A stretch of DNA of 52,136 nt, taken from IMG/VR virus record IMGVR_UViG_3300036796_000098, positions 1 through 52,136 of that record; one strand, written 5' to 3'. Positions within the stretch are counted from its first letter, which is position 1; each line of letters starts with the position of its first letter. Shown here one piece after another: positions 6,397 through 52,136 of this stretch. The translations under genes and the position numbers were made by a program. Source of the stretch: a virus. Lineage: Duplodnaviria; Caudoviricetes. The notes beneath the pieces were generated by a model, which saw only the letters and a list, made by a program, of their open reading frames with translations, was not told the DNA's origin and searched no databases.

Positions 6397-6421
6397 GGGG
6401 TTTCCTTAGATATGATTTGAA

Positions 6422-6823: not shown

Positions 6824-6843
6824 GCGGACTGTGCGATGACCAA

Positions 6844-7446
6844 TCAGGCCGCTAAATCTTTGAGCTTTTGCACTGCTTTATTCAGCGTGTCGATACAGTC
6901 GATAAACTCATCTGTTTTGCGCTGTAACGCGCCAGCGGCCTGACAAACTTCTAGTTTTACCGGGGCCAGCTTCTTGTTGAAGAAGTCGTTATCGTTGCGT
7001 TTGCGCTCAAGCTCTTCTGCCTGCTTCAAAAGCTGCTCAGCTTGTTTACGAATTGCTTCCGGCGAATTTGGAATAGATAACGTTTCCATTACTGGCTCCT
7101 GCTTAGTTGTTGTCACTGGCTGCTGAATGCTGGCAACTGCCTTTGGCTCTGTTGTCTTGGTCGGATATTTGTAGCCAGGAATGTCTTTTGGATATCCGTA
7201 TTTCTTGTGACGCAAGAACGTCATCATGTTCTTTCCGTTAACCGGTATTGCCTGAATAACCAGAATGCTTTCTCTCTGCTCCAGAAACTCGATAAGACTG
7301 TCTTTTTCGCGCTTGGTAAGAGAGCCAAATGCGCCGATCTTGTTGCTTAGCTTCGACAGGGTGACGCCATCCGGCATCTTCTCTACGTAGCTTTTAACTT
7401 CTGCAAGCGGTCGGTATAACTTCGATGGGATAGTTGCTGGCGTCAT
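6844..7446 (-). CDS. Hypothetical protein with C-terminal coiled coil
   Basis: 200-aa ORF with AGGAGG RBS, directly after N. Confidence 0.75.
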   Translation of the reverse strand: MTPATIPSKLYRPLAEVKSYVEKMPDGVTLSKLSNKIGAFGSLTKREKDSLIEFLEQRESILVIQAIPVNGKNMMTFLRHKKYGYPKDIPGYKYPTKTTEPKAVASIQQPVTTTKQEPVMETLSIPNSPEAIRKQAEQLLKQAEELERKRNDNDFFNKKLAPVKLEVCQAAGALQRKTDEFIDCIDTLNKAVQKLKDLAA

Positions 7447-7454
7447 GTGCCCTC

Positions 7455-7739
7455 CTAAATAAGTGGAATGCTGTGGCCTTTCATTTTTTGCCGCGCGTTA
7501 ACCTGCTGGCCAAGCGGATTTCGAACCTTGCGATATTGCGGGCTTTCTCTGGTCACGAATTGTTCTTCTTTAGGCTGACGTAAGCCCGGTAAGCTGAGAG
7601 CTTTACAAATACGCTCTGAGCCTTCACCAGACAGCTTTGCAAATGCCCGGTTAATTTTTCCTGCATAGTTGCAGGCATCAATCTGCTGAGATGCTTTTCT
7701 GGCGTTGTACTCAGCCATGCGGCGTTGATTTCTGTTCAT
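7455..7739 (-). CDS. N: N-type antiterminator
   Basis: First gene of the pL operon; Arg-rich NRNQRR N-terminus; C-terminal QKMKGHSIPLI like the lambda N terminus (SIPLI). Confidence 0.8.
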   Translation of the reverse strand: MNRNQRRMAEYNARKASQQIDACNYAGKINRAFAKLSGEGSERICKALSLPGLRQPKEEQFVTRESPQYRKVRNPLGQQVNARQKMKGHSIPLI

Positions 7740-7752
7740 GGGTATTCCTCAG

Positions 7753-7980
7753 TGAGTGCTTTGGTGATTGGATGACCGGGTCTGAAACCGGCTTAGGGAT
7801 TCCACCTTTTCATGACGAGTTTGAGACCGTGGAGCGTCTTCCTCAGTGCGGTTGCCCGCCACCAGTAAACTGGCGTTTTGTGGTCCATCGTCTTTCCTGA
7901 GTCGTGTCTTAACCAGATCGGGATACCGGCACGTAATCAGGGCGCAGCAACTGCGCATTCATCCAATCCCAAAACACTCA
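7753..7980 (-). promoter_or_regulatory. Structured N-leader RNA (RNase III-type closing stem with a 183-nt multibranch insert)
   Basis: 22-bp stem 7959-7980 / 7753-7775 ending beside the N RBS; several internal hairpins. Confidence 0.7.
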
Positions 7981-7988
7981 TGTTCTGG

Positions 7989-8022
7989 CCTGTGTATTCA
8001 CAGGGCTAAATTTTTAAAGAGC
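7989..8022 (-). promoter_or_regulatory. nutL (boxA + boxB)
   Basis: boxA GCTCTTTAA (8014-8022), then hairpin CCTGTG-AATA-CACAGG (7989-8004). Confidence 0.8.
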
Positions 8023-8069
8023 CAGCAACTCAGTTCCTTGTTGCAGTTCAGCGTCCTGCTGATGGAGTA

Positions 8070-8134
8070 AAATTAGCATCGTGCTAAAACTTATGCAATA
8101 GCCGCGCGCTAAAAATTTTAGCGTTAATTGCTAA
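8070..8134 (-). promoter_or_regulatory. pL and OL operators
   Basis: TTGCAT-17-TAATTT on minus strand; palindromes TTAGCATCGTGCTAA 8073-8087, ATAGCCGCGCGCTAA 8098-8112, TTAGCGTTAATTGCTAA 8118-8134. Confidence 0.75.
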
Positions 8135-8196
8135 ATTCATGAATTTTAATAGACTTTATTTTAGCGGTGGGTTTAGCGTCTATTGAATTGAGGCAC

Positions 8197-8221
8197 AAAA
8201 AAACCCGCACTAAGCGGGTTT
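8197..8221 (-). terminator. Terminator after cI
   Basis: AAACCCGC-5nt-GCGGGTTT with a T-run on the minus strand. Confidence 0.8.
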
Positions 8222-8239
8222 AAATGTTTTATTGAGGGG

Positions 8240-8959
8240 TTAATATGTTACGGACGACCAAAAGACCTTTCCTATTACTCTAATCTGATCCCTATCTCTG
8301 ATTTCTTCTTCGTGTTCTTCACTGTTGTAACTACGGATTCTCACCTTGCCGCCAGGCACTGCGTAAAGCAACTTTACACGTAGGAGGTCGCCATAATCGA
8401 TGGCATACATTTTGCCATCTTTTATTTCGGTGCATCCCATGTCCACCCCAACGGTTGCACCGTTCGGGAGAACGGGCTCCATGCTGTTACCAATGACTTC
8501 CACGCAGACCGCATTATTAAATTGAACGTTCAATCTGCGCAGAGTTGATTTTGCAAATCTCAACTTAAACCCATTGTTGTCTTCCTGAAATGTGCTTCCG
8601 GTGCCGGCAGCTAACTGAACCTCTTTCAAGAACGGAACTTCTATTTCATCGTCCTCAATAGCAGTTGCAGAATCCCATGGCTCAATATCGCCAATGATCT
8701 TTGCCTGGCCTTTATTTTCCTCATTCTCTAATTCTGGGTGCTGCTGGTCAAGCCATCCGCGCGGAAGCTCAAGATGCATTTCTATTTTTCTTGCTAACTC
8801 ATCTCCAAGATTACGCACGGCTTTATCACCCAGAATCTGACTCAGCGTAGATGAAGACGTGCCAACTTTATCTGCAAAATCTGACTTGCTTAAGCCAGCC
8901 CTGACAGCTTTGTGTTGCTGATAACGGAGGTTAACCCGCCTGATCTCTTTTATGTCCAT
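8240..8959 (-). CDS. cI: CI repressor (HTH + S24 autopeptidase)
   Basis: N-terminal HTH, AAG cleavage site, GNSMEP (Ser) and RVKLL (Lys); probable ATG at 8959. Confidence 0.93.
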   Translation of the reverse strand: MDIKEIRRVNLRYQQHKAVRAGLSKSDFADKVGTSSSTLSQILGDKAVRNLGDELARKIEMHLELPRGWLDQQHPELENEENKGQAKIIGDIEPWDSATAIEDDEIEVPFLKEVQLAAGTGSTFQEDNNGFKLRFAKSTLRRLNVQFNNAVCVEVIGNSMEPVLPNGATVGVDMGCTEIKDGKMYAIDYGDLLRVKLLYAVPGGKVRIRSYNSEEHEEEIRDRDQIRVIGKVFWSSVTY

Positions 8960-8978
8960 GCTTAAATTTTCCCACCTT

Positions 8979-9046
8979 TTAGCACGGCGATAAATATGCA
9001 TGTTGCTAAACGACTCCTTGCAATTATTTTAGCGTATCGCTAATAT
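8979..9046 (+). promoter_or_regulatory. OR operators and pR
   Basis: TTAGCACGGCGATAA 8979-8993; TTAGCGTATCGCTAA 9029-9043; TTGCAA(9018)-17-TAATAT(9041). Confidence 0.75.
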
Positions 9047-24282: not shown

Positions 24283-25803
24283 GTGCGGTGGAAATGGTGG
24301 AAGAAAGAAATCGCCGCGCCTGAGCCGGTGAAAGAGCCTGAAAAGGTTGAGATGAAAATCAAGCAAGAGGCGGTCGCTGATATCCAGGCTAAACCGCCTC
24401 GTGAGTTTCAGCAGTACAAGCCACCAAAAGGAGTTATCCCGGAGAGTATCGAGAAAGGTGTACTGGCTATGGACTCAACCCCATACGCAACGCTGAATGA
24501 AGCTTACACCGGATACACCTACGGCTACCCTGATAGCTTCCCAGGCTATCCATACCTGGCGACGCTGGCGCAGAAGCCGGAATACCGGAAAATGGTCGGG
24601 ACCATCGCCGAAGAGATGACACGCAAATGGATCAAGCTCAAGACTGCAGGTGATGAGGATAAGTCAGAGCGCGTTAAGCAACTTTACGACGCACTCGACC
24701 GGTTCAAGGTTCGTGACCGGTTCCGCGAGGCTGCGGAGCATGACGGCTATTTCGGCGGCGGCCAGATTTACATCGATGTGCAGTCAACGCGCGGAGTATC
24801 TGCCTGGACTGATGATGTTGAGCTGCAATCCAAGTTGTTCCTGTCTGACAAGAAGATCAAGCAAGGCAGCCTGAAGGGCTTCACTGTGATTGAGCCTGTC
24901 TGGACCTATCCCGGCGTGTACAACACAGCAAACCCGATGAACCCTGACTTTTACAAGCCGACAGAATGGTTTGTGATGGCTAAGACGGTGAACTCAAGCC
25001 GTATGCTGGACTTTGTTTCTCGCGAGGTTCCTGACCTTCTAAAGGCCGCCTATAACTTCCGTGGTCTGAGCCTGACACAGATAGCAGAGCCGTATGTGAA
25101 TAACTGGCTGCGCACCCGCGACAGTGTCAGCGACATGATTCACTCGTTCAGCATTCCGGTCATCGGAACGAACATGAGCACTATCCTGCAAGGGGGAGGT
25201 GCTGAGTCACTTCTTGCCCGATTACAGATGTTCAATCAGTGCCGTGATAACCGAGGGGCGTTTGCGAAGGATAACGACGCAACACAGCCTGAGACGGTGG
25301 AATTCGTCAATGCACCTCTCGGCACTCTGGACGCTCTACAGGCCCAGGCACAAGAGCAGATGGCGGCAGTATCAAGCATCCCTCTGGTTAAGTTGCTGGG
25401 CATATCACCTGCCGGGCTTAACGCTTCGTCAGATGGCGAAATACGCGTCTTCTATGACTACATCCACGCTCTGCAGCAATCGATGTTCAAGGACAACCTG
25501 AAACGCGTTCTGGACATCATTCAGCTTTCAGAGTTCGGCGACATCGACCCGGAAATCTACTTTGAGTTTGAGCCTCTCTACGAGATGAGCACGAAGGAGA
25601 AAGCAGAGATTCGGAAAATTGATGCAGACACTGACGCGGTTTATGTGGCTGTTGGCGCGCTGTCAAATAACGAGGTGCGCGAGAAGATTGCCGAAGACCC
25701 TGAATCACCTTATCACTCACTGGACCTAAGCGATGACATCGACCTCGAAGAAGAAGATGGCGAAGACATCGACCCAGAAGACGATACCGCCAGTCAGACC
25801 TAA
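24283..25803 (+). CDS. Portal protein (DUF1073-like)
   Basis: Follows terL; [21 protein letters not shown] motif. Confidence 0.88.
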
Positions 25804-26545
25804 CGCAGGTGTGGAGGCGTGGTATCGACGCCAGCTCGATAAGCAGGTCCGAGAGATGCAGAAGTCTGTTGTGTACTGGCTCACCGCTAACTACAAAGCG
25901 AGCGGTGCGGCGGTGGCAATGGACGCATCTCCGGCTGTATTTATGCGTGACGCGATGAAAAAGCTGGCTAAGCGCTGGACTAAATCATTCGACAACATTG
26001 CTCAGAAACTTGCCGATCGGTTCGCTGGCGACGCCATGAAGAACTCTGACGTGTCGCTGCATAACGCGCTGGAGACTGCTGGCTTCACGGTTGAGTTCAA
26101 AATGACCGCGCCAATGAATAACGCGCTTCAGGCGACCATTGCTGAAAACGTCGGGCTGATACGCTCCATCCCGGAGAAGTATTTCACCGAGGTAGAAGGT
26201 CTGGTCATGCGCTCAGTGGCTCGGGGGCGTGACCTGTCATACCTCACCGATGAATTGCAAAAGCGTTACGGTATCACCCGCCGACGGGCGGCGCTGATTG
26301 CTCGCGATCAGAACAACAAGGCAACCTCCGTGATGCAGGCGGCTCGGCAGAAGTCACTCGGCATCACGCAGGGCATCTGGAGGCACTCTCACGCTGGTAA
26401 AGAACCTCGTCCATCGCACGTTAAGGCCGATGGAAAGGTGTTTGAACTCAGCAAGGGGATGTACCTGGATGGAAAATGGGTGATGCCGGGAGAGGAAATC
26501 AACTGTCGTTGCACCTGGTCACCAGTCATACCCGGTCTTAGCTAG
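25733..26545 (+). CDS. Head morphogenesis protein (MuF / SPP1 gp7 family)
   Basis: [22 protein letters not shown]. Confidence 0.9.
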
Positions 26546-26557: not shown

Positions 26558-27760
26558 ATGAAAACAACTGAACGGTTGGCATTTGACCGCGCATCCGTGC
26601 GCACATTTGATGGCAACGGCAGGCTTCAGGTAAAGGTAAGCAATATCAGCAAGGCGAATGTCTGTCCCTACTTCGGGCGAGAGATTCCAGGCGCTGATGA
26701 GTTAGGCCTGGACCCCGAGAAGATTTACCAACTCTGGCGACATCCTGACGAACTGAAGAAAGCCGTAGCGACATTCAACAACATCCCACTCCTTTCAATC
26801 CACACCCCTGACTTCCCCGGTGACCCACCTCGCGAATATCGCGTAGGGGTTACTCACTCGAACGCTGACTTTGACGGAACGTATCTCACTAACGGCCTGT
26901 CCGTGTGGGACAACTCCGCTATCGCCGGTATCGAGACGGAAGAACAGGAAGAATTGTCTTCGTCGTACCAATACGTCGCTGACATGACCCCCGGCACGAC
27001 ACCAAATGGTGAAGTCTATGACGGCATCATGCGGGAAATTATCGGGAACCACGTAGCGTTGGTCGAAACTGGCCGCGCAGGAAGCGACGTATTGGTCGCA
27101 GATTCTTTACCACCGGAGTTAAAGCACATGAGCAAACGCAAAGCTGCGGCTATTCGCGCCACGCTGAAGCCATTACTGGCAGCAGACGCGGATCTGGAAG
27201 CAGAAGTACGCAAAGCACTTCTGGCTCTCGATGAAGCCGACAAAGAAGACGAGAAAGACAAAAAGACGGCTGATGACGAGGACGACGAAGAAGACGATAA
27301 GAAAAAGAAAACCGCTGACGATGAAGATGAAGATGACGAAGACGACAGCGACGACAAAAAGAAAAAGACCGCCGATGACGAAGACGATGAAGACGATGAC
27401 AAGAAAGACGACAAAGTCTCCAAAACGGCTATGGACTCCGCGATCCGCTTAGCAGCTGACAGTGCAACAAAAAAGGCCGCTCAGAACTTCCGCGAAATCC
27501 GCGAGGCTGAACTGGCTGTTCGCCCTCTGATTGGCGATGTGGTGGCGATGGATTCTGCGGCTGATGTCTACCGTACCGCCCTTGAACAGTCCGGCGTCGA
27601 CATCAAAGGCGTCCACCATTCCGCGTTCCCGTCACTGGTGAAAATGGCGATCAGCCAGAAAGAAAGCTCACGTCCTGCCGCTTTGGCTCAGGATTCCGCA
27701 TCAATTAGCGAGTTCGAGAGCGCATTCCCGACCGCTGGCAAACTGAAACGAGGTTTCTAA
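26558..27760 (+). CDS. Prohead protease/scaffold (DUF2213-like)
   Basis: [19 protein letters not shown]; acidic/lysine KKTADDED repeats. Confidence 0.85.
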
Positions 27761-41810: not shown

Positions 41811-44447
41811 ATGTCATTTTCAGATACGGCAAATGCGAGAAAATATGCCTCTATCGCAGAGGTAGCTGCTGCCCAGGCAAAACTGAGCGCGGATAAGCTT
41901 GAAAATGCACCAGATTATGCAGAGCAGGCCGCCGCGTCAGCCAGTGCAGCCGCTGCATCTGCCCAGGTGGCGGTATCGGCTGAAGGGGTTGTGAATAACC
42001 TGGCTATTTCAGCAAGTGAATCGGCAACTAGCGCAGCAGCCTCGGCTGCTGAAGCTGGCAATGCGGCCGCAGCAGAGATTGGAAGAACAGTTAGAGCGCC
42101 AGACGGGGAATTGCTGAGTAATCTTCCTGGGGCATCAGAACGTCAAAACAGCGTCATGGTATTCGGGAATGACGGTGATTCAGATGTAAAACCAATCACT
42201 GAATTTGCCACGTTGGATAGCAATGGGAAAATACCGGTTTCGGTAATCCCATCCATCGCACTAAACGAGCCTTTCGTCGTGAATAGCGAGGCTGAAATGT
42301 TAGCGCTGGACGCCCAGGTTGGTGATATTGCCAAAAGGACAGATCTAGGGTACTCGTTCTGCTTAGGTATCATGCCACCATCCACCCTGGCAAACTGGGT
42401 GCAACTGACTGATGACGTCCTCTCGCAGCTTGGACAATCATCAGGGGCAGGCATGGTTGGAGCACTGGATGACGGAGGAAGCCCCAGCACTGTCCAGGCT
42501 CTTTTAACCGAAAAAGCCAATAAATCTTCACTTTCATCCACAACAGGCGCAACGCTAATTGGTTACGGAAGCAAGACTGTAGACCAGGCACTTACTGACC
42601 TTAATGGGGTAAAAGACGACATTCTTGCAGATTTCGCCGCAAGCAATGGCATCACTTTGGTGGGCAGTTCTGTTTATGTGGCAAACAGTTTTGCCTCTGC
42701 AAAATCTTCAAACCCCGGCAACAGCACCTGCATTGTCACGAAGGGACATACCAACACTGGCATTGGCTCGGCAAAGTATATTAAAGACGGAACCACCGGC
42801 ACCGCTTCAACTGGTGACGAAATCAAATTCTTTGATGCATCAGGTAATGGATGGTCAATGGATCTTTCTGATGCAGTAGGTATTCCAATTACACGCTTTG
42901 GCCTGATTCCAGGCGTAGACACTCCGACGCAAGCCACTGCAAACGCCGTAGCAATGAAGAGAGGTGGGGAGAGGACTTTTGATGTTGGGCTTCGGGTGAT
43001 TCTTCCTCCCACGAAATCATATATTGATGATGTGACGTTCAGCAAGCCGGTTGGGATCATGGCATTCACTGCTGGCCTGGGGGCAAACCAAACAGGAGTT
43101 GGTGGTGGGTATGACGGGATATCAGAGTGGGTCCATCGCGGGACTGGCTGGGGTATCTACTATGAGCCGTGGTTAAGAACAAACGGCAGCTTTAACCCTG
43201 ACGGAATATTCCTGAAAGGATTTGGCTTTAGGGGAAATGCTTCAGGGGGTTGCCTTGGAGGTATAAAGATCAATGATGACTCAGTAATTGGCGATGAAAG
43301 CAGAGCCAAGCGAGATGTTGTTATTGAAGATGTAACGATCACCGGGTGCTGGAAAGGTTATGGGCTGAGGTTAATTTGGTGCTTCATCAACAACTTCTCC
43401 AACCTGAAGATATGGGATTGTGCTGTTGCTTACCTCGCGGTTAGGGCGAATCAAACAAACCACTTCGGCTTCGAGACAGAAGGTTGTCTGCAGGGAGTGA
43501 CTGCGATAAACACTGCAGGGTTTAATTTCTATGGCCCTATGATTGAATACATTAATAACTCCCGGACATATTACACGATGCCTGCCGACTACCCGGTGGA
43601 TAGTGTTTGGTCATCTAGCTTGTCAAACTACGTGGGAATTGGCCTAAGAAACAGAGGAAGCAAGGTTTCTGTTTACGGTGGCTACTCTGAAGGGGTTCCA
43701 GTTGTTTTCCAGACTGAGATCGATAGTGAGTCTCTTGTCAGCGGGGTAAGATTCCAGGCGCTTAGTGATTCTACAAATCACATATGTCGTATTCATGGCG
43801 GGCGCTCGGTTGTGTTCACTGATAACTTAATTGAAGGGAGTGTTATTGGCACAACTCCGTTCTACCATACCCCGTCGATGCCGTATGCGGTTAGTCACAG
43901 GGTCATCACTAACACCTATAATGGGACTGCAAGACCTGTTGTAAACCCATTCCTAGGGTTCTTTGGTGAGTTTGATGTTTTCCGCACAAACAATTCTGAC
44001 GCAGGAATGATTAGGCAGACTCAAGGCATTTCCGCAACGCGTAGTAATTTAGGAGGGATAGCTGACACTGCAGGATATCCAGTTCAAACTGGTGGGGATG
44101 TTCTATCATCAAGGCAAGTAAATATATCAGCGACGGGATCGGCGTTTACATGCACGATAGGCACCACTGTTCTCAATGCCGGTCTGGTTAACATAAATGT
44201 TCCTGCTGGATGCTCGCTCACGGTAGCGCTGGCTGATTCTACTAAATGGGATAACGGAAGCGTACTAACCGTATGCATTGTCTCCTCTGGTACATCTGGT
44301 AGTCCTATTGCTGTTGCATTCAGTTCATCCTTCAAATTGGCTACCGGAAATGATGATATATCAGCCGCCACTGGTAAAAGAGCCTTGTTTGAATTCAAGA
44401 TGATAGGTGGGGTCTTCTTCCAGCAAGGCGTTGCAAAATCAGTGTAG
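41811..44447 (+). CDS. Tailspike / putative beta-helix depolymerase
   Basis: Ala-rich anchor, particle-binding region, long Gly/Asn/aromatic-rich beta-repeat body; 878 aa. Confidence 0.75.
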   Translation: MSFSDTANARKYASIAEVAAAQAKLSADKLENAPDYAEQAAASASAAAASAQVAVSAEGVVNNLAISASESATSAAASAAEAGNAAAAEIGRTVRAPDGELLSNLPGASERQNSVMVFGNDGDSDVKPITEFATLDSNGKIPVSVIPSIALNEPFVVNSEAEMLALDAQVGDIAKRTDLGYSFCLGIMPPSTLANWVQLTDDVLSQLGQSSGAGMVGALDDGGSPSTVQALLTEKANKSSLSSTTGATLIGYGSKTVDQALTDLNGVKDDILADFAASNGITLVGSSVYVANSFASAKSSNPGNSTCIVTKGHTNTGIGSAKYIKDGTTGTASTGDEIKFFDASGNGWSMDLSDAVGIPITRFGLIPGVDTPTQATANAVAMKRGGERTFDVGLRVILPPTKSYIDDVTFSKPVGIMAFTAGLGANQTGVGGGYDGISEWVHRGTGWGIYYEPWLRTNGSFNPDGIFLKGFGFRGNASGGCLGGIKINDDSVIGDESRAKRDVVIEDVTITGCWKGYGLRLIWCFINNFSNLKIWDCAVAYLAVRANQTNHFGFETEGCLQGVTAINTAGFNFYGPMIEYINNSRTYYTMPADYPVDSVWSSSLSNYVGIGLRNRGSKVSVYGGYSEGVPVVFQTEIDSESLVSGVRFQALSDSTNHICRIHGGRSVVFTDNLIEGSVIGTTPFYHTPSMPYAVSHRVITNTYNGTARPVVNPFLGFFGEFDVFRTNNSDAGMIRQTQGISATRSNLGGIADTAGYPVQTGGDVLSSRQVNISATGSAFTCTIGTTVLNAGLVNINVPAGCSLTVALADSTKWDNGSVLTVCIVSSGTSGSPIAVAFSSSFKLATGNDDISAATGKRALFEFKMIGGVFFQQGVAKSV

Positions 44448-44509: not shown

Positions 44510-46471
44510 ATGAACCAAAAAATAAACTACAGACCTGAACTAGATGGATTGAGAACCATAGCTGTGATGGCCGTGCTTTTTTATCACGCAAAAATATCAC
44601 TAATGGGAAGGGAGTTACTGCCTGGTGGATTCCTTGGTGTGGATATATTTTTCGTCCTTTCAGGATTTCTTATCTCTTCAATAATTATTAAATCATCGAA
44701 TTCTGGTGGTTTTTCCTATGTTGATTTCTACATAAAGAGGGCCAAGAGAATTTTCCCCGCGCTTCTCGCGGTGCTTATCGCCACATCATTTGTAGCGTAT
44801 AGAATGCTTCTTCCGGATAGCTTTGTTGCATTCTCAAAATCTCTGGCTGCTGCCGCATTTTTTGTGTCTAATATTTTCTTTTATGGGGAGGACTCATACG
44901 TTTCAGAAGCAAGCGATATGAAGCCTCTACTTCACACGTGGAGTCTTTCTGTAGAATGGCAGTTTTATTTATTGTTCCCTGTGATTATGCTTATGATTTT
45001 AAGGTGTGCAAAAAATAAAAGCATATACGCAGTGTCCATCCTATGGGTCGCCTCCTTTGCTCTCTCTGTGTATCAAGCTAAGTTTAGCGAAAATGCGGCG
45101 TTCTACCTCCTTCCTTCAAGGGTGTGGGAGTTATTGTCTGGGTGCTTAGTTGCATTAATCGGAAGAAAAAATAATAGATTTGCAGCATGGATTGGCGGGG
45201 CTATGGTGGTGTGTTCATTGCTGTTTATGAATGACAAGATGCAGCATCCTTCATTCCCGGCATTACTCCCAGTTCTTGGTTCAAGTCTTATCATGCTGTA
45301 TTCAAGTTCAACCATTGGGATTGGAAGGTTTCTGTCAATTAAGCCCATTGTATTCATAGGGGCGATCTCATACTCATTATATCTTTGGCATCAGCCAATA
45401 TTTGTCTTCTATAGAATAGGGTATGGAGGAATAGACAATCTCGTTGGTATTGCACTTATAGTGGCATCCATTGCAATGGCGGTTGTATCATATTATGTAA
45501 TTGAAAAACCGTTTAGAACACAAAGATACAACTCGTTTAAGAAGCTTGGATTTACAGGATCATTTCTTTTCTTGTTGCCATTCTCATATTACGTGAATGC
45601 AACAAATGGAGATGTGGGTAGGCTCTCCCCTCAGGCGCAAGATATATATAAGAACTATGCAGATCCTGAGTTTCGTAGACTGACTGGGCAGCCTGGTGCA
45701 AACCTAAGGAGTGGTGCGATAAGCGCATCTTGCTATCTTAGAGATCCGTATCAAGCGTGTGCGTCTGGCGATGCCTCGTGGATTACTATCGGAGATAGTT
45801 ACGCTGGAACCTTAGATTATTATTTAAGCGAAAAACTTAATGAAAATGGTCATGGATTGCTGTCTTTAACTTACGAGCAGTGCCCATTCGTTAACGATAT
45901 CTGGTTCGGAAATGTTCCTGAGTGCGTTGAAGTAAACAAACGCAGATGGGACATTATAAATAACTTAAAAGGCAAGAAGACAATTGTTCTTGCTGCTAAC
46001 TACTTCTTCTTTGTAAATGGTAAAAAGGCGACTCCAGATCCAATCGGTGACGGAAGAAAGAATGTCACTTACGGGGAGAAGGTTGATGAAGATATCGTCT
46101 GGAAGTCATTTGCTGATAATGTTAAGAGACTTGTTGGTATGGGGCATCACGTCATCGTTGTTTACCCGATACCTTCTGTTAGCGAGGATGTTAAGACTGA
46201 GTATTTCTCATTAATAACCAATCCAAACTCTAAGTTTGATGGTGTTATTTATGAAAAAAGTAAAACAGGGAAGATGGTGGCAGATGTGTTTAGTGCAAAA
46301 CTTGATTCTCTTCTCCCGAAATCAGATGGTCTGACAATTATTAAGCCGACAGATAAGATCTGCGATGATAGAGGATGCCAGATAATAAATAAAATGGGCG
46401 GCCTTTATCACGGAGGGAACCACCTATCAAATGCTGGCGTCAGACTTCTTTTCAGCAATACTCAATTTTAG
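44510..46471 (+). CDS. Acyltransferase-3 + SGNH protein (OafA/OafB-like surface polysaccharide O-acetylase)
   Basis: YRPELDGLR, GVDIFFVLSGF, HTWSLSVEWQFY, multiple TM segments, GDSY and NHLS; AT-rich. Confidence 0.92.
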   Translation: MNQKINYRPELDGLRTIAVMAVLFYHAKISLMGRELLPGGFLGVDIFFVLSGFLISSIIIKSSNSGGFSYVDFYIKRAKRIFPALLAVLIATSFVAYRMLLPDSFVAFSKSLAAAAFFVSNIFFYGEDSYVSEASDMKPLLHTWSLSVEWQFYLLFPVIMLMILRCAKNKSIYAVSILWVASFALSVYQAKFSENAAFYLLPSRVWELLSGCLVALIGRKNNRFAAWIGGAMVVCSLLFMNDKMQHPSFPALLPVLGSSLIMLYSSSTIGIGRFLSIKPIVFIGAISYSLYLWHQPIFVFYRIGYGGIDNLVGIALIVASIAMAVVSYYVIEKPFRTQRYNSFKKLGFTGSFLFLLPFSYYVNATNGDVGRLSPQAQDIYKNYADPEFRRLTGQPGANLRSGAISASCYLRDPYQACASGDASWITIGDSYAGTLDYYLSEKLNENGHGLLSLTYEQCPFVNDIWFGNVPECVEVNKRRWDIINNLKGKKTIVLAANYFFFVNGKKATPDPIGDGRKNVTYGEKVDEDIVWKSFADNVKRLVGMGHHVIVVYPIPSVSEDVKTEYFSLITNPNSKFDGVIYEKSKTGKMVADVFSAKLDSLLPKSDGLTIIKPTDKICDDRGCQIINKMGGLYHGGNHLSNAGVRLLFSNTQF

Positions 46472-46477: not shown

Positions 46478-46493
46478 GCCCGCCACGGCGGGC
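46478..46493. terminator. Hairpin between convergent genes
   Basis: GCCCGC-CACG-GCGGGC. Confidence 0.55.
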
Positions 46494-46955
46494 CTAAGGT
46501 AAAATCTTTGGTTTTACAATGCACCCACATCCAACTAACTGCCCTGCATGTATTCTTTTGAAGAATCCAATCCTGATACCTTTCTTTAATGAAATAGACT
46601 TACCATTCAGCTGTGAGTGGCTAGGGTGCTTACACAAATAATTCTCATAAACCCATATGCCATGAGTTATGCCCAAACCCAACTGCCTTGCCCTCTCAAA
46701 CTTCTGCCTAACAAGACCCCAAAGGACCCTAGATAAGGCTCCAGACATGGGCATGCTCAGCCCGGTAATTTCTGCGATTTTGGCTCGAGCTGAGTGTAGA
46801 TCTGCTCCGAATTTAACCACCTCGCTGTAAACCCCTTTCTCTTCTTTCACATCCAGCGCGCACTTTCTTATTATTAATAAATCTGTGTCAACGGTTTTTC
46901 CTGAAAGCATTTGGCGGATTATTAAGTCTTCTTCCTTGCTGAGGCTAGACATCAT
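46494..46955 (-). CDS. Divergent, shortened MuF-like protein
   Basis: Aligns by eye with the C-terminal ~110 aa of the 25733-26545 product (ARQ..LGIT.GIW, PSH, GK, KG, CxC...P). Confidence 0.75.
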
Positions 46956-47218
46956 TTACCCTTATTCTTAGGAACCAAATCGTAGCTTCTGGAAATCTCT
47001 TCTGCGAAAGCCTTTGTCGCTATGCGAATCACGCGGTCAACGCTCTGTTCTGATAGGATTTGCCCCTGCTCACCGGACAGCCAAGCCTCAAGAGCAGCAA
47101 TTATCTCCGAGTTCATTGATCTCCCATTGCTCTTAGCTCGATCAGCAATCGCATCTCGCATGCCATCCGGGAAACGAACCACAAACTTCTCGAAATCTTT
47201 AACCTGTTTTTCAGCCAT
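46952..47218 (-). CDS. Arc-family ribbon-helix-helix repressor (Mnt-like)
   Basis: [30 protein letters not shown]. Confidence 0.9.
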
Positions 47219-47242
47219 AACACCACCTCAAAAAAAAGTGAT

Positions 47243-47302
47243 GATGGCATATTGCTATTTATATTCAATGATGGCATTCTGCTTTCAAGGCATAATGCCA
47301 TC
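47243..47302. promoter_or_regulatory. Divergent promoter region with three RHH operator-like palindromes
   Basis: GATGGCA-TAT-TGCTATT, GATGGCA-TTC-TGCTTTC, CAAGGCA-TAA-TGCCATC. Confidence 0.7.
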
Positions 47303-47318
47303 ATCAATGGGAGGGATT

Positions 47319-47477
47319 GTGGAAAAAAATGAAGCAAAGACAACTCTGCGTTACCCGCAGAAATTGAAAGAAGAGTTTAAGCGCATTGCAGAAGAGGAGG
47401 GGCTTTCAGAGAACGCAGCATTGGTTCAGGCGCTTGTATGGGCTTTGAAATTCCGAGGTCAGATGCATGTGCAATAA
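47319..47477 (+). CDS. Arc-like RHH repressor
   Basis: GTG start, GGAGG RBS; TTLRYPQKLKEEFKRIAEEEGLSENAALV. Confidence 0.82.
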   Translation: MEKNEAKTTLRYPQKLKEEFKRIAEEEGLSENAALVQALVWALKFRGQMHVQ

Positions 47478-47550
47478 AAACAGCGAAGCCCAGAAGTGCT
47501 CGAACACTCTGGGCCTCTTATCGAACAAATCCAAGCAAGGAAATATCGAC
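47476..47550 (-). ncRNA. sar-like antisense RNA 1 (ends approximate)
   Basis: Minus-strand GTGAAA-17-TATACT within the first codons of the antirepressor; hairpin 47488-47514; covers the RBS. Confidence 0.6.
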
Positions 47551-48120
47551 ATGAAAAGTATAGCGAAAGTAGAAAGTAATTTCACCTCATTCAAATTCGA
47601 TGATCGCGATGTGCGTGTAGTGACGAAGGACGGAGAGCCTTGGTTCTTGGCTGCCGACCTATGCGATGTTTTGCATTTAGATACCACATCAATTCGCAAA
47701 CTGGATGACGATGAAAAGGGTCTGCATTCAATACAGACCCTTGGTGGAGCACAGCAGATGGCGGTTGTTTCCGAGTCTGGCATGTGGACTTTAGTTCTTC
47801 GTTGTCGTGACGCAGTGAAGCCTGGAACGATCCCTTACCGTGTGCGTAAGTGGGTTACCGGCGAAGTTCTTCCTTCCATTCGTAAAAATGGCGAATACAA
47901 AGACAACAAATCAGCAAGTGTTTCTCTGAAAGAGAAAGAATGCCGCTACCGCGTCAGAGTCATCATCTATGACGATCTGATGGGCGGCGGCGCTGAGATG
48001 CTCGGTAAAGGAGAAACGATACGTGATATCGCATGGGGTATCGCAAGCGACCTTGGATATCGCCCTAATGCGTTTACTCACGTTCCGATGAATAAAGAAA
48101 AGATCAGGAGAATTCACTGA
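47551..48120 (+). CDS. BRO-N domain antirepressor-like protein
   Basis: VRVVTKDGEPWFLAADLCDVL, VSESG, KWVTGEVLPSIRKNG. Confidence 0.87.
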   Translation: MKSIAKVESNFTSFKFDDRDVRVVTKDGEPWFLAADLCDVLHLDTTSIRKLDDDEKGLHSIQTLGGAQQMAVVSESGMWTLVLRCRDAVKPGTIPYRVRKWVTGEVLPSIRKNGEYKDNKSASVSLKEKECRYRVRVIIYDDLMGGGAEMLGKGETIRDIAWGIASDLGYRPNAFTHVPMNKEKIRRIH

Positions 48121-48140
48121 CAGGCGCACAGGATGGCGCA

Positions 48141-48207
48141 AAAAGAAAAACCGCCAGGTAGGACTGGCGGCTTACATCAACTACCGACAAGGTATAAATT
48201 AATGCTT
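48141..48207 (-). ncRNA. sar-like antisense RNA 2 (ends approximate)
   Basis: Minus-strand GTGACA-17-TAAATT; terminator CCGCCAG/CTGGCGG 48151-48170 with a T-run. Confidence 0.58.
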
Positions 48208-48903
48208 ACAGGTAATTTAGCAGTTAAGACAGCCCCTGTCACTATGTCCAGCCTTGAGATATCTGAGCTTGTTAAGTCAAGGCATACGGATGTTCGTCGT
48301 TCAATCGAGCGACTGATGCAAAAGGGAATTATTACTAGTGCGCCAATGGCGTTTCTTGCAAATATCAATGGGTTAGGAAAGGTCGTGAAGGTTAAGGCCT
48401 ATCTTCTTGGTAAGCGTGATAGCTATGTTGTTGTTGCTCAGCTGTCACCTGAGTTTACAGGTGCCTTAGTAGATCGCTGGCAGGAGCTTGAGTCGCAAGT
48501 GTCGATGCCATCTCTGCCAAAAAATTACAAGGAAGCTTTGCTTGCTCTGGTCGTTGCGGAAGAGGAAAAAGAAAGGATTTCCATTGAACGTGATGAGGCA
48601 ATCGAAACCAAAGCGTGGATCGGTGAGAAACGTGAAGCCACTGCTATGGCAACTGCATCGGTTGCTGTTCGTGAAAAGAACAAGCTCGCTGAGCGTATTG
48701 GTGAAGGAAAGAAATACGCTGCAATCATTCCTGTAGAGAAAAAAATGGACAGGGAATATAAGTGGCAGCCGTTGCGTAAGTGGTGCCGTGAAAATTGTGT
48801 TGAGCCGCACGATGTCGAAGATAAGCGCTTCGGTACGGTTAAGGCATGGCCGCGAGCGGCATGGATGGCCGTTTATGGCGTGGACCTGAAGAAGCTTTTC
48901 TAA
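48202..48903 (+). CDS. Rha-family antirepressor-like protein
   Basis: TMSSLEISELV..RH...SYVVVAQLSPEFTGALVDRWQELE; LPKNYKEAL. Confidence 0.85.
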   Translation: MLTGNLAVKTAPVTMSSLEISELVKSRHTDVRRSIERLMQKGIITSAPMAFLANINGLGKVVKVKAYLLGKRDSYVVVAQLSPEFTGALVDRWQELESQVSMPSLPKNYKEALLALVVAEEEKERISIERDEAIETKAWIGEKREATAMATASVAVREKNKLAERIGEGKKYAAIIPVEKKMDREYKWQPLRKWCRENCVEPHDVEDKRFGTVKAWPRAAWMAVYGVDLKKLF

Positions 48904-49673: not shown

Positions 49674-50150
49674 TTAGCTGAACAGAGCGGTAATTGAGGC
49701 GCTGCCTAACGAGTGAAAATGGACGTTAAAGCCGACCAATGCGCCGGAAGCATTTTCATCCACCTCCAGCTTTTCGACGTCCAGCGCGTGGACGGTGAAA
49801 ATATAGCGGTGGGTTTCCCCTTTCGGCGGCGCAGCTCCGCCGTAGCCTGCTTTGCCAAAATCCGTGCGGGTTTGTACGGCGGGTTCCGGCAGCGCGGCTA
49901 AATCAGAGCCTGCTCCCTGCGGCAAGACGCGCGTGTTTGCGGGGAGGTTAGCCACCACCCAGTGCCACCAGCCTGAGCCCGTTGGCGCGTCCGGATCGTA
50001 ACAGGTGACGACGAAGCTTTTCGTGCCCGGAGGCACGTCGTCCCATGCCAGGTGTGGCGAAATGTTGTCCCCCGAGTAGCCCATGCCGTTGAATACGTGG
50101 CGGGCGGGCAGCTTTTCACCTTCTTTAATATCCTGACTAATCAGTTTCAT
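49674..50150 (-). CDS. ybhB: YbhB/YbcL (PEBP/RKIP-like) protein
   Basis: YDPDAPTGSGWWHW; synteny with attB and bioA. Confidence 0.95.
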   Translation of the reverse strand: MKLISQDIKEGEKLPARHVFNGMGYSGDNISPHLAWDDVPPGTKSFVVTCYDPDAPTGSGWWHWVVANLPANTRVLPQGAGSDLAALPEPAVQTRTDFGKAGYGGAAPPKGETHRYIFTVHALDVEKLEVDENASGALVGFNVHFHSLGSASITALFS

Positions 50151-50165
50151 ACCGGTTCCTTGCGA

Positions 50166-50846
50166 CTAGAGATCGAGTAGTTTTAGCAGCTCTTCGGCGG
50201 CAATAGTAGACGAGGCTGGATTTTGGCCGGTAACCAGATGCCCGTCGACCACCGCATACTCGCCCCAGTCGTCGGTGCGTTCGAACAGGCCGCCCGCCTT
50301 TTTCAGCTCATCTTCCACCAGGAAAGGCACGATGGCGGTTAGCCCAACGCCGTCCTCTTCGCTATTGGTAAAGCCGGTGACGCGTTTGCCTTTCACCAGC
50401 GCAGCCCCGTCAGGGGTTTTTACCCGTCGCAGTACCCCCGGCGCGTGACAAACTGCGCCCACAGGTTTGCCTGCCGCCCAGAATTGTTCGATAAGCCTGA
50501 TTGAATGCGGGTCTTCGGCCAGATCCCACAGAGGGCCGTGGCCGCCGGGGTAGAAAACGGCATCAAAATCTTCGGCAGGTAAAGTTGAAAGCTGAAGGGT
50601 ATTAGCCAGTAATTTTTGTGCCGCCGCATCGCTGCGGAAGCGGCGCGTGTCGTCAGTCTGGGCGTCCGGCTCGTCGCTTTTTGGGTCCAGCGGAGGCTGG
50701 CCGCCTTTGGGGGAAGCGAGAGTCACCTCAAGCCCGGCGTCGTGAAAAACGTAGTAAGGCGCGGCAAACTCCTCCAGCCAAAAGCCGGTGGGTTTGCCGG
50801 TATTGCCCAGCTTATTGTGGGATGTCAGTACCATGAGAATTTTCAT
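50166..50846 (-). CDS. DJ-1/PfpI family (class I glutamine amidotransferase-like) protein
   Basis: GFWLEEFAAPY, PGGHGPLWDL, AVCHAP, TGQNPAS. Confidence 0.92.
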   Translation of the reverse strand: MKILMVLTSHNKLGNTGKPTGFWLEEFAAPYYVFHDAGLEVTLASPKGGQPPLDPKSDEPDAQTDDTRRFRSDAAAQKLLANTLQLSTLPAEDFDAVFYPGGHGPLWDLAEDPHSIRLIEQFWAAGKPVGAVCHAPGVLRRVKTPDGAALVKGKRVTGFTNSEEDGVGLTAIVPFLVEDELKKAGGLFERTDDWGEYAVVDGHLVTGQNPASSTIAAEELLKLLDL

Positions 50847-50913
50847 CAGGATCTCCCGGAATGCGTGAAAAGATCCTCGAAGTGTAGTTCATCCTCACCC
50901 GGTGCGGAGGCGA

Positions 50914-52136
50914 TCAGCCTTTGAAAAACGCGGGATTATCAACCGCGCCTGCCACGGCAGCGATGAGTTTATCCAGCTGTTGCGGGCTGATGATATAAGG
51001 CGGCATCAGATAAATCAGGTGGCCAAACGGGCGGATCCACACGCCCTGTTTGACGAAGTAGGCCTGAAGCGCGGCCATCTCTACCGGGGTGCGGGTTTCC
51101 ACTACGCCAATCGCCCCCAGCACGCGAATATCCGCGACCTGCGGGCTTGCGCGCAACGGCTCCAGGCCTTCAAGCAGCTGTTTTTCAATCGCCGCGACCT
51201 GCGTCTGCCAGCCGCCTTCCAGCAGCAGTTCAAGGCTTTCGCCTGCCACCGCGCAGGCCAGAGGATTGCCCATAAACGTTGGGCCGTGCATGAAGCATCC
51301 GGCCTCGCCGTCGCTGATTGTTTCAGCCACATGGCGGGTAGCCAGCGTGGCGGACAGCGTCATAGTGCCGCCGGTTAGCGCTTTGCCCAGGCACATAATA
51401 TCCGGGGCAATTTCGGCATGTTCACAGGCAAACATTTTGCCGGTGCGCCCAAAGCCGGTGGCAATTTCATCGGCAATCAGCAGGATGCCTTCACGATCGC
51501 ACATGCGGCGAATACGCTTCAGCCATTGCGGATGATAGAAGCGCATGCCGCCCGCACCCTGCACGACGGGTTCAAGAATAACGGCGGCAATTTCATGCCG
51601 GTGAGCCGCCATCAGCCGCGCAAACGGCACGATATCCATTTCGTCCCATTCATCGGTAAAACCGCACTGCGGCGCAGGTGCAAAAAGGTGCTCCGGCAGA
51701 TAACCTTGCCACAGGCTGTGCATCGAATTGTCCGGGTCACATACCGACATCGCCCCAAAGGTATCGCCGTGGTAGCCGTGGCGGAAAGTCAGAAAACGCT
51801 GCCGGGGCTCGCCTTTAGCATGCCAGTATTGCAGCGCCATTTTCAGCGCCACTTCTACCGCAACCGAGCCAGAATCGGCCAGGAAAACGCACTCCAGCTG
51901 CTCGGGTGTCATTGCCACCAGCCTGCGGCACAGGGCAACCGCCGCGGGATGGGTGATGCCGCCAAACATCACGTGCGACATCTGGTCTATCTGGGCCTTC
52001 ATTGCCTGGTTCAGGCGCGGATTGTTATAGCCGTGAATCGCCGCCCACCAGGACGACATGCCGTCCACCAGCGCTCTGCCATCGGCTAGGGTTAGCTCGC
52101 AGCCGTCGGCTGAAACAACCGGATACACCGGCAGCG
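50914..52136 (-). CDS. bioA: DAPA aminotransferase (5' end beyond the window)
   Basis: [50 protein letters not shown]. Confidence 0.97.

What the first reader, a model, noticed from the sequence alone, without database searches (positions are those of the whole stretch)
46494..47218. Lysogen-side decoy of the phage's own MuF head protein: candidate new superinfection/anti-phage system
Seen: the 153-aa ORF aligns by eye with the C-terminal part of the structural MuF protein (25733-26545). The match is ungapped over ~55 aa (VKFGADL/VARGRDL ... [26 protein letters not shown]) and continues HPSH/RPSH, NGK/DGK, LKKG/LSKG and [16 protein letters not shown], roughly 30 identities in ~110 aa with the His and CxC kept. 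It lacks the N-terminal part, is AT-rich, lies 20 kb from the head genes on the opposite strand, and is ATGATG-coupled to the Mnt-like repressor. Established: MuF/SPP1 gp7 binds portal and DNA and aids genome delivery, and P22 mnt is transcribed in the lysogen. Inference: a repurposed structural paralog made in the prophage state that poisons head assembly or DNA entry of related phages, or senses their portal, and is shut off with mnt on induction. I know of no description of this arrangement.
Basis: partly seen in the sequence, partly recalled or inferred. Interest (0 to 1): 0.85.

Follow-up and report, generated by a model that had tools for sequence, protein, structure and literature searches.

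The report
Head-protein paralog in prophage immunity operon
A temperate phage carries a second, shortened and remodelled copy of its MuF head protein directly behind an Mnt-type repressor gene, which makes it a plausible but untested anti-phage or regulatory accessory gene.

Summary
The 153-aa ORF (46494-46955, minus strand) is homologous to the C-terminal ~150 residues of MuF/gp7 minor head proteins, including the phage's own MuF (BLASTP 28% over 115 aa, E 9e-10; profile-profile 99.5%, E 2e-22). It overlaps the stop codon of an Mnt/Arc-type repressor gene. It belongs to a small conserved family of 152-158 aa under purifying selection. I found it only in one lineage of enterobacterial temperate myophages. 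In all 7 loci with upstream sequence it sits directly behind the Mnt-like gene of an mnt | arc-ant switch. In sister prophages this slot holds unrelated cargo or nothing.

The decoy or exclusion function remains an inference. Four findings argue against simple mimicry. The family has replaced MuF's most conserved polar residues. It lacks two of MuF's four long helices. It does not track its own phage's MuF (51% identity against 95%). It coexists with a second related prophage in one E. coli strain. A toxin-antitoxin reading is weakened because the repressor often occurs alone or with other partners. I rate it a real new variant of a known domain family with unknown function and moderate interest.

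The parts
46494..46955 (-). ORF153: stand-alone, remodelled paralog of the C-terminal ~150 residues of MuF/gp7 minor head protein (152 aa if the second ATG at 46952 is used, as in relatives)
46952..47218 (-). Mnt/Arc-type ribbon-helix-helix repressor gene whose stop codon overlaps the ORF153 start (ATGA)
   Evidence: Pfam Arc 1.5e-16; phrog_7906 9.4e-30; junction read; match to an annotated mnt
46478..46493 (.). GC-rich inverted repeat (GCCCGCC-GTG-GCGGGC) between the convergent ORF153 and acyltransferase genes; a possible two-way terminator with no T-run
   Evidence: read directly; not listed by the terminator scan
47239..47306 (.). operator-like repeats (ATGATGGCAT..TGC, three copies, two inverted pairs) in the mnt/arc divergent intergenic region
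47307..47477 (+). small divergent ORF (56 aa) in the position of arc; it looks ribbon-helix-helix by eye but has no Pfam hit at E<=0.001
   Evidence: the 77%-identical E. coli region is annotated 'hypothetical protein'
47467..48120 (+). Bro-N domain antirepressor-like gene
   Evidence: Pfam Bro-N 7.6e-14
48133..48903 (+). Rha-family regulatory protein gene
   Evidence: Pfam Phage_pRha 1.2e-07
25733..26545 (+). the phage's own full-length MuF minor head protein (270 aa): four long helices plus a C-terminal His/Cys beta module
   Evidence: PF04233 7.5e-15; TIGR01641 1.7e-13; AF2 model pLDDT 94.0
24283..25803 (+). portal protein (DUF1073 / PF06381 type) whose 3' end overlaps the MuF ORF
44510..46471 (+). 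context: AT3 + SGNH acyltransferase (likely surface-polysaccharide acetylase, a lysogenic-conversion type gene), convergent with ORF153, GC 40.6%

Best explanation
SHOWN:
- ORF153 encodes a basic (pI 9.8) 152/153-aa soluble protein. It is a diverged stand-alone paralog of the C-terminal module of MuF/gp7 minor head proteins: helices 3-4 plus the small beta module with the invariant His and CxC.
- It belongs to a small monophyletic family under purifying selection. I found it only in one lineage of enterobacterial temperate myophages, which also carry a normal full-length MuF next to a DUF1073 portal.
- The gene always lies directly behind an Mnt-like repressor gene, overlapping it or 23 nt away, in an mnt | arc-ant (P22 immI-type) switch. 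In related prophages this slot holds unrelated genes or none.

INFERRED:
- It is co-transcribed with mnt and therefore made in the lysogen, as mnt and the neighbouring sieA are in P22.
- It acts as a prophage accessory protein that interferes with a MuF-dependent step of superinfecting relatives. That step could be handling of the incoming DNA and ejected internal proteins at entry, or portal/head completion during assembly.
- Because the family has replaced MuF's hallmark polar residues and rebuilt its helical part, I expect a neofunctionalised MuF-derived binding module rather than a one-to-one competitive mimic of the phage's own MuF.

The descriptive part is near certain. The confidence given below is for the mechanism.
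For: Homology and fold:
- BLASTP E 9e-10; phrog_324 E 9.1e-8; hhalign 99.5%.
- A profile search of 1.84 billion representatives gave 157 hits at E<=1e-3. Seven of these fall below 1e-10 (the short family and fragments of it); the rest are mostly ~260-290-aa proteins aligned through their C-terminal 110-150 residues.
- 55 of 83 members of alignment A2 match PF04233.
- The AF2 model has pLDDT 93.8. All 11 BFVD matches at E<=1e-3 are either named minor capsid proteins or unnamed.
- The ESM Atlas's own single-sequence model matches a 157-aa PF04233 cluster at TM 0.66/0.65.

Real gene under selection:
- 7 clusters of 152-158 aa at 49-100% identity.
- pN 0.16-0.40 with synonymous sites saturated; dN/dS 0.19-0.36 for the three diverged pairs where measurable, and 0.53 for one near-identical pair.

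Conserved context:
- An Mnt-like RHH gene lies immediately upstream in 7 of 7 distinct loci with upstream sequence: window, L003, L004, L005, L006, L007, L013. The same holds in annotated E. coli prophages.
- Divergent arc/antirepressor genes are present wherever the sequence extends that far.

Accessory slot:
- The closest Mnt homolog (66% identity, Edwardsiella phage GF-2) is ATGA-coupled to an unrelated 171-aa ORF.
- Two P22-like E. coli prophages have other unrelated ORFs coupled to mnt.
- Two prophages of the same lineage have mnt alone.
- In P22, sieA, orf59a and mnt are contiguous and sieA is prophage-expressed (passages of PMC10883804).
- One locus has a SocA/Panacea antitoxin gene next door.
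- GC is 43.1% against 50.0% for the prophage, next to a 40.6% GC acyltransferase at the prophage end.

Lineage link: 3 of 3 complete genomes with the short gene also carry a full-length MuF.

Expression hint: contigs from RNA libraries of three studies cover the E. coli-type short gene and bridge its junction with mnt.

Background on MuF: SPP1 gp7 binds the portal strongly, is targeted to the procapsid interior, and only ~25% of virions lacking it are infectious (passages of PMC6316719).
Against: - No phenotype is known, and there is no hit in PADLOC or NCBIfam.
- In 14 short against 84 long sequences, the short family has replaced positions conserved in 86-96% of the long MuFs: R185, A186, I189, D192, Q193, K196, H218, R226 (own-MuF numbering).
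- It lacks helices 1-2, and helices 3-4 are broken into five short ones. It may therefore not bind what MuF binds.
- It does not co-vary with the resident MuF. Window against G004 gives 95% identity for MuF and 51% for the short protein.
- E. coli Z1323CEC0009 carries a cassette-bearing prophage plus a second prophage of the same lineage. Exclusion of relatives is therefore not absolute, although the order of acquisition is unknown.
- The family is rare: 5 of 5426 complete E. coli genomes carry the cassette, whereas 34 carry this MuF type.
- gp7 is dispensable in SPP1, so displacing MuF alone would give only a mild effect.
- A protein that blocks head assembly would also threaten the prophage's own progeny unless a counter-measure exists, as for Tab (abstract of PMC10884400). 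No such counter-measure was identified here.
- The RNA evidence comes from contigs only and gives no strand or level. One of the four runs covers the whole prophage stretch evenly, as DNA would.
Confidence: 0.33

Rival explanations
1. Regulatory partner of the immI switch. The MuF-derived basic protein binds nucleic acid, Mnt, Arc or the antirepressor, and tunes the prophage's own maintenance or induction rather than acting on other phages.
For: - It is translationally coupled to the repressor in 3 of 7 loci and 23 nt away in 4 of 7.
- All 14 family members are basic, pI 9.0-9.9.
- gp7 is called a DNA-binding protein in the title of Stiege et al. 2003, seen only as a reference entry.
- The two Mnt C-terminal types go with the two main short-protein clades. 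Linkage alone could explain that.
Against: - The same Mnt types work without it: mnt stands alone in two prophages of the lineage, and a 66%-identical Mnt has an unrelated partner.
- L004 and L007 share a 96%-identical Mnt (dS 0.06) but their short proteins are only 74% identical (dS 0.52). The two genes therefore recombine apart.
Confidence: 0.2
2. Type II toxin-antitoxin or abortive-infection pair. The RHH protein is the antitoxin and autorepressor, and ORF153 is a toxin.
For: - Small RHH gene first, overlapping a ~150-aa second gene.
- The RHH also matches the FitA-like antitoxin RHH model below its cut-off (E 7.9e-06, 26.2 bits against cut-off 27).
- The neighbourhood is rich in accessory genes, including a TA-type gene.
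Against: - The RHH gene faces arc/antirepressor genes as P22 mnt does, and it resembles an annotated mnt over residues 11-84.
- It occurs alone or coupled to unrelated ORFs.
- Repressor and ORF recombine independently.
- ORF153 matches no PADLOC, Pfam or NCBIfam toxin model.
- MuF domains are described as structural carriers, not toxins (passages of PMC5576092 and PMC5512222).
Confidence: 0.1
3. A second internal virion or ejected protein of the phage itself: a short MuF that is packaged through the portal and delivered with the DNA to act early in the next host.
For: - Stand-alone MuF-domain proteins of ~150-170 aa exist as minor capsid proteins. Examples are the 160-aa protein of Pseudomonas phage NP3 in BFVD and Atlas clusters of 157-167 aa.
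- MuF domains are the known handle for head packaging.
Against: - It lies 20 kb from the head genes on the other strand, in the repressor operon.
- It has lost the hallmark MuF residues.
- Its GC content and phylogeny differ from the head module.
Confidence: 0.1
4. A decaying or functionless remnant of a duplicated head gene.
For: It is rare, and at least one RefSeq record leaves it unannotated.
Against: - The frame is intact in every copy seen, including the unannotated one.
- 59 columns are invariant across 7 proteins that are only 49-70% identical to the window's.
- Non-synonymous change lags far behind saturated synonymous change.
- The predicted fold is confident.
Confidence: 0.03

Closest known systems
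MuF / SPP1 gp7 minor head proteins (Pfam PF04233 Phage_Mu_F, TIGR01641)
   Same: Homologous over the whole 153 aa to the C-terminal ~150 residues of MuF. The core positions are kept (G50, W101, H113, G118, G126, P/A137-G138, C143-x-C145), as are the basic charge and the C-terminal beta module.
   Different: - It lacks the first ~115 residues (two long helices).
- The remaining helices are re-broken.
- The hallmark polar residues are replaced.
- It falls below Pfam's threshold.
- It is encoded in the repressor operon rather than next to the portal, alongside a normal MuF in the same genome.
P22 immI region with prophage-expressed genes beside mnt (sieA, orf59a)
   Same: An Mnt-type RHH repressor is divergent from arc/antirepressor genes, with extra genes directly behind mnt on the prophage-expressed side. 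P22 SieA targets internal ejected virion proteins of superinfecting relatives (abstract and passages of PMC10883804).
   Different: SieA is an inner-membrane protein unrelated to ORF153. ORF153 shows no hydrophobic membrane-type stretch by eye (not tested with a prediction tool) and derives from a head protein. The phage here is a contractile-tailed type with a DUF3383 sheath-type protein, not a P22-like podovirus.
Prophage-encoded blocks of virion assembly or packaging (Tab of Pseudomonas prophages; the TERi locus of Listeria phage)
   Same: Both are proteins constitutively made by a prophage that let infection proceed but stop formation of infectious progeny (abstract of PMC10884400; search-listing abstract and passages of bioRxiv 10.1101/2025.02.27.640495). 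One branch of the proposed mechanism would work this way.
   Different: They target the tape measure or terminase. I saw no statement that they derive from a structural protein. Tab comes with an anti-Tab gene for self-protection, and no such partner was identified here. No phenotype is known for ORF153.
Satellite-encoded homologs of helper-phage structural proteins (for example capsid or scaffold look-alikes of SaPIs/PICIs); recalled from memory, not checked in any call
   Same: A structural-protein homolog is used by one mobile element to divert or spoil the assembly of another.
   Different: Those are encoded by satellites and expressed during helper lytic growth. Here the gene sits in a complete prophage's repressor operon.

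Membership tests
MuF / Phage_Mu_F (PF04233, SPP1 gp7 family) | Match to the curated family model at its threshold | tested here: not met
   No PF04233 or TIGR01641 hit for ORF153 at E<=0.1 or E<=1. The own MuF scores 56.1 bits against a cut-off of 29.6.
MuF / Phage_Mu_F (PF04233, SPP1 gp7 family) | Demonstrable homology to family members (superfamily level) | tested here: met
   phrog_324 E 9.1e-8; hhalign against 61 MuFs 99.5%, E 2e-22; 150 listed profile hits, of which the sampled set is 55/83 PF04233-positive.
MuF / Phage_Mu_F (PF04233, SPP1 gp7 family) | Conserved core residues (Trp, His, Gly, Pro-Gly, Cys-x-Cys) | tested here: met
   H113, G126, C143 and C145 are invariant and W101, G118 and G138 nearly so in 83 sequences. 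They are shared between 14 short and 84 long sequences.
MuF / Phage_Mu_F (PF04233, SPP1 gp7 family) | Hallmark polar motif of helix 4 and the Arg before the invariant His (own MuF R185, D192, Q193, K196, H218, R226) | tested here: not met
   Each is present in 86-96% of 84 long MuFs and in 0 of 14 short proteins.
MuF / Phage_Mu_F (PF04233, SPP1 gp7 family) | Encoded in the head module next to the portal gene | tested here: not met
   ORF153 lies 20 kb away on the opposite strand behind mnt. This holds in all 7 loci.
MuF / Phage_Mu_F (PF04233, SPP1 gp7 family) | Binds the portal and is incorporated in the procapsid | not testable with these tools
   Needs pull-down or virion proteomics. The one modelling attempt gave no verdict (see Tried and rejected).
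P22-type immI switch (mnt | arc-ant) | Mnt/Arc-family RHH repressor divergent from a small arc-like gene and an antirepressor, with operator repeats between | tested here: met
   Arc domain 1.5e-16 and Bro-N antirepressor-like 7.6e-14; three operator-like repeats; relatives annotated Arc family plus antirepressor. Caveat: the 56-aa arc-position ORF has no Pfam hit.
Type II toxin-antitoxin system | Antitoxin and toxin form an obligate, co-inherited pair | tested here: not met
   The repressor is found alone or with unrelated partners. Mnt at 96% identity against short protein at 74% in L004/L007 shows independent recombination.
Type II toxin-antitoxin system | Second gene belongs to a known toxin family or is toxic | tested here: inconclusive
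   No PADLOC, Pfam or NCBIfam toxin match. Toxicity itself is not testable here.
Prophage superinfection-exclusion / assembly-blocking defence | Expressed from the prophage in the lysogen | tested here: inconclusive
   Contigs of RNA libraries from three studies cover the E. coli-type gene and bridge mnt-ORF. Contigs give no strand and do not exclude DNA carry-over.
Prophage superinfection-exclusion / assembly-blocking defence | Reduces infection or progeny of other phages | not testable with these tools
   Needs plating and burst assays.

The most novel reading that the evidence does not exclude
The MuF-derived protein is a sensor wired to the immI switch. In the lysogen it sits with the Mnt repressor or its operator. 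When a related phage injects its DNA with MuF/portal-associated proteins, or starts building portals, the short protein is titrated away. That releases the antirepressor, so the resident prophage induces or the cell aborts before the invader completes its cycle. A phage structural domain would then have been recruited as a detector of kin phages that controls a lysis-lysogeny switch.
Probability: 0.06. Interest if true: 0.85.

Novelty: new variant of a known kind. Interest (0 to 1): 0.52.

Why it matters
MuF is one of the most widespread phage head-associated domains, yet its own function is poorly known. Here the domain has been duplicated, cut down, rebuilt and moved into the arm of a prophage's immunity region that is expected to be expressed in the lysogen. 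Exclusion genes such as P22 sieA live in that position.

If the protein does act on incoming relatives, it would be a defence built from the attacker's own structural part. It would also give a handle on what the MuF C-terminal module binds. If it is instead a regulator, it would be a new component of Mnt/Arc/Ant switches. Either outcome can be tested directly in E. coli K-12 with the E. coli allele.

The family is unannotated or labelled 'hypothetical' wherever I saw it.

Tried and rejected
Complex modelling: portal (alignment A3) with ORF153 (alignment A2) as partner scored 0.00 in both runs, with no controls run and a verdict of 'no answer'. It counts neither for nor against binding.

Solved structures:
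- A sequence profile search of the PDB with A1 and A2 found nothing meaningful; the best E-values were 0.53 and 0.084, on unrelated helical proteins.
- Foldseek against the PDB gave no match at E<=1e-3 for either model.
- VIA-align wide gave a best Z of 5.2 on unrelated helical chains.
- No solved relative of the MuF fold was therefore found. This does not show that the fold is new.

Zn site: the idea of a His/Cys zinc site, with C108 replacing long-MuF H218 as a ligand, rests only on conservation patterns. I had no coordinates to measure distances.

Wider distribution:
- A scan of GTDB species-representative genomes found 0 relatives among 55 pattern matches.
- The phage-record tblastn found only full-length head proteins, in 28 records all below 60% identity.
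- Context searches for the more distant short MuF-like proteins P0014 and P0012 found no viral contig. Whether other short MuF-domain proteins sit outside head modules remains open.

RNA cover: in runs X6 and X7 the laid contigs fall only within 4802-8626 of the 9761-base L004 stretch and not on the baseplate genes. Run X1 covers everything evenly, as DNA would.

Mnt-only count: 142 of 147 matching E. coli genomes matched only the mnt part in a blastn search. blastn could miss diverged short alleles, so I rely on the four annotated regions I opened from this and the earlier search, not on the number 142.

Supplementary files of papers were closed and not requested. The supplementary tables of Jamet et al. 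2017 (1515 MuF proteins) could list short MuFs outside head modules.

Considered and dropped:
- A recent duplication of the resident MuF. GC is 43% against 55%, identity is 27%, and the family forms a separate clade.
- A fused or longer form of the family. All hits below E 1e-10 in the length-unrestricted search are 80-169 aa.
Full report
WHAT IS THERE. The window is a complete prophage with flanks. An integrase lies at 197-1267 and a CI-like repressor at 8240-9001. The head-tail genes run from 22.6 to 44.4 kb. Host genes (PEBP, DJ-1/PfpI, class-III aminotransferase) follow from 49674.

The right end of the prophage reads as follows:
- a tail fibre gene (41811-44447, +);
- an AT3+SGNH acyltransferase (44510-46471, +);
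- on the minus strand, ORF153 (46494-46955) and an 88-aa Arc/Mnt-family gene (46952-47218);
- a 90-nt divergent control region with three operator-like repeats;
- on the plus strand, a 56-aa ORF in the arc position, a Bro-N antirepressor-like gene, a Rha gene and a UmuD-like gene.

The repressor's TGA overlaps the first ATG of ORF153 (ATGA) and abuts a second ATG. A GC-rich hairpin separates ORF153 from the convergent acyltransferase.

- ORF153 aligns with the phage's own MuF (25733-26545) at 32/115 identities, E 9e-10. MuF is its only other match in the record.
- At profile level the link is firm. phrog_324 'head morphogenesis' matches at E 9.1e-8.
- A profile of the short family found 157 proteins at E<=1e-3 among 1.84 billion representatives. 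Seven fall below 1e-10: the family and fragments of it. The rest are mostly ~260-290-aa proteins aligned through their last 110-150 residues.
- 55 of 83 sampled members carry PF04233.
- hhalign against 61 long MuFs gives 99.5%, E 2e-22.
- Pfam's own model misses ORF153.
- H113, C143 and C145 are invariant across 83 sequences.
- The gene is AT-rich: 43.1% GC against 50.0% for the prophage and 55.4% for MuF.

A SMALL, REAL FAMILY.
- The 5.8-billion-protein collection holds 7 clusters of 152-158 aa at 49-100% identity. They carry names from Enterobacter kobei, E. coli and Salmonella enterica, and all are labelled 'hypothetical'.
- Fifty-nine alignment columns are invariant.
- Between loci, synonymous sites are saturated while pN is 0.16-0.40. 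Where measurable, dN/dS is 0.19-0.36 for the three diverged pairs and 0.53 for one near-identical pair.
- In a tree of 144 MuF-domain rows, the 14 short proteins form one clade (SH-aLRT 95-97).
- The three MuFs of the phages that carry the short gene rank 3rd, 4th and 8th of 130 by path distance to that clade. This fits an old duplication inside this phage lineage, but the node joining them is weak (66).
- The family is rare. The cassette occurs in 5 of 5426 complete E. coli genomes, against 34 with this MuF type. No species-representative genome had it. No phage record has a close homolog.

CONTEXT IS CONSERVED.
- In all 7 distinct loci with upstream sequence, an Arc/Mnt-family gene lies directly in front on the same strand. 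These are the window and L003, L004, L005, L006, L007 and L013.
- The two genes overlap in 3 loci and are 23 nt apart in 4. Divergent arc/antirepressor genes are present where the sequence reaches that far. Annotated E. coli prophages show the same arrangement.
- All loci belong to one phage type: DUF1073 portal, MuF, DUF3383 sheath-type protein and baseplate J.
- All 3 complete genomes have a full-length MuF as well.

THE SLOT BEHIND mnt IS A CARGO SLOT.
- The nearest Mnt homolog (66% identity, Edwardsiella phage GF-2) is ATGA-coupled to an unrelated 171-aa ORF.
- Two P22-like E. coli prophages have other unrelated ORFs coupled to mnt in the same way.
- Two prophages of this very lineage have mnt alone, abutting the transglycosylase gene.
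- L004 and L007 share a 96%-identical Mnt (dS 0.06), but their short proteins are 74% identical (dS 0.52). Recombination therefore separates the two genes.
- In P22, sieA and orf59a lie beside mnt, and sieA is expressed from the prophage and targets ejected internal proteins of relatives (PMC10883804, abstract and passages).
- These points favour an accessory gene riding on the repressor transcript. They weaken the toxin-antitoxin reading.

WHAT THE PROTEIN LOOKS LIKE.
- The AF2 model of ORF153 (pLDDT 93.8) has five short helices followed by a small beta module. Its alignment contained MuFs, so the fold is not fully independent.
- The ESM Atlas's single-sequence model also matches a PF04233 cluster (TM 0.66/0.65). 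BFVD matches are minor capsid proteins.
- The own MuF (pLDDT 94.0) has four ~40-residue helices (25-63, 67-115, 126-163, 168-208) plus the same beta module.
- The short protein thus lacks helices 1-2, and helices 3-4 are re-broken.
- A comparison of 14 short with 84 long sequences shows that the core is shared: I29, G50, I96, W101, H113, G118, G126, G138, C143, C145.
- It also shows that positions conserved in 86-96% of the long MuFs are absent from all short proteins: R185, D192, Q193, K196, H218, R226. Mostly hydrophobic or new invariant residues take their place: L78, W79, C108, H110, F132, G144.
- All members are basic, pI 9.0-9.9.
- No solved structure resembles either model.

EXPRESSION. 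Using the E. coli-type cassette (L004), 11 runs on record as RNA hold part of it. I laid four. Contigs from three studies cover the short gene and bridge its junction with mnt: X3 record 10, X6 record 16 and X7 record 21. The fourth run covers the whole stretch evenly, as DNA would. This is compatible with transcription in natural samples, but it does not show strand, level or the lysogenic state.

MECHANISM. What is known of MuF comes mainly from SPP1 gp7. It binds the portal strongly and is placed inside the procapsid. It is dispensable for assembly, and only ~25% of virions lacking it are infectious (PMC6316719, passages). It is used widely as the handle for packaging effector domains (PMC5512222, PMC5576092, PMC9503650, passages).

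My best reading (about one in three) is as follows. The short protein is made with Mnt in the lysogen. It interferes with a MuF-dependent step of incoming relatives, either at DNA delivery or at head completion. The latter would resemble the prophage-encoded assembly blocks Tab and TERi.

Several points argue against a simple decoy:
- the lost hallmark residues and rebuilt helical part;
- the lack of co-variation with the resident MuF, 95% against 51% identity between the window and G004;
- a natural double lysogen of two lineage members, one with the cassette;
- the mild phenotype expected from displacing MuF;
- the unsolved question of self-protection.

The rivals are a regulatory role in the immI switch (0.2), a toxin-antitoxin or abortive pair (0.1), a packaged second MuF (0.1) and a dead remnant (0.03). 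The remaining probability is for functions I have not thought of.

NOVELTY. Five full-text searches returned no paper describing a MuF-domain gene in an immunity or repressor operon or as a defence. Supplements were not available. The domain family and the kind of locus are both known, but the combination is not. I therefore rate it a new variant of a known kind, of moderate interest and readily testable.

Noticed in passing
window 49674-52136 and 197-1267: The 'virus record' includes about 2.5 kb of host DNA at the right end (PEBP, DJ-1/PfpI and class-III aminotransferase genes; GC 59%). An integrase lies at the left end, so the record is an integrated prophage with flanks.
   Followed up: partly
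window 44510-46471: An AT3+SGNH fused acyltransferase with the lowest GC in the region (40.6%), convergent with ORF153. L003 has an AT3-only acyltransferase in the same place behind its short MuF gene. It is likely a surface-polysaccharide-modifying conversion gene.
   Followed up: partly
L017 3267-3782 (Edwardsiella phage GF-2 ORF-20); L019 2753-3118; L020 2753-3067: Unrelated small ORFs are coupled by a 4-nt overlap to mnt homologs in other phages and prophages. None has a Pfam family (only GF-2 ORF-20 was scanned) or resembles the short MuF family. The slot directly behind mnt therefore looks like a general cargo site.
   Followed up: partly
L007 6857-7730: A SocA/Panacea-domain antitoxin gene (E 1.9e-24), with an overlapping 164-aa ORF of no known family, lies about 0.4 kb downstream of that locus's short MuF gene.
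   Followed up: no
E. coli NZ_CP148453.1 at 1.47-1.49 Mb and 3.35 Mb (L018; H37): One strain, and two sister strains from the same source, carry two prophages of this lineage. One has mnt alone and the other has mnt plus the short MuF gene.
   Followed up: partly
L016 3271-3738 (E. coli TW10590, NZ_CP035850.1): The short MuF gene is intact (155 aa) but has no CDS in the RefSeq annotation of this record.
   Followed up: yes
window 25733-25803: The MuF ORF as listed overlaps the 3' end of the portal ORF by 71 nt. In an E. coli relative the annotated minor head protein starts after the portal stop, so the true MuF start here may be a later ATG.
   Followed up: no
window 26558-27760: The 400-aa protein after MuF (DUF2213 in the E. 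coli relative) carries a repeated, highly acidic [14 protein letters not shown]-like tract in its middle.
   Followed up: no
proteins P0014, P0015, P0121: Other 160-190-aa MuF-C-domain-only proteins exist outside the short family. One has a hydrophobic N-terminal stretch. Their genomic context could not be found.
   Followed up: partly
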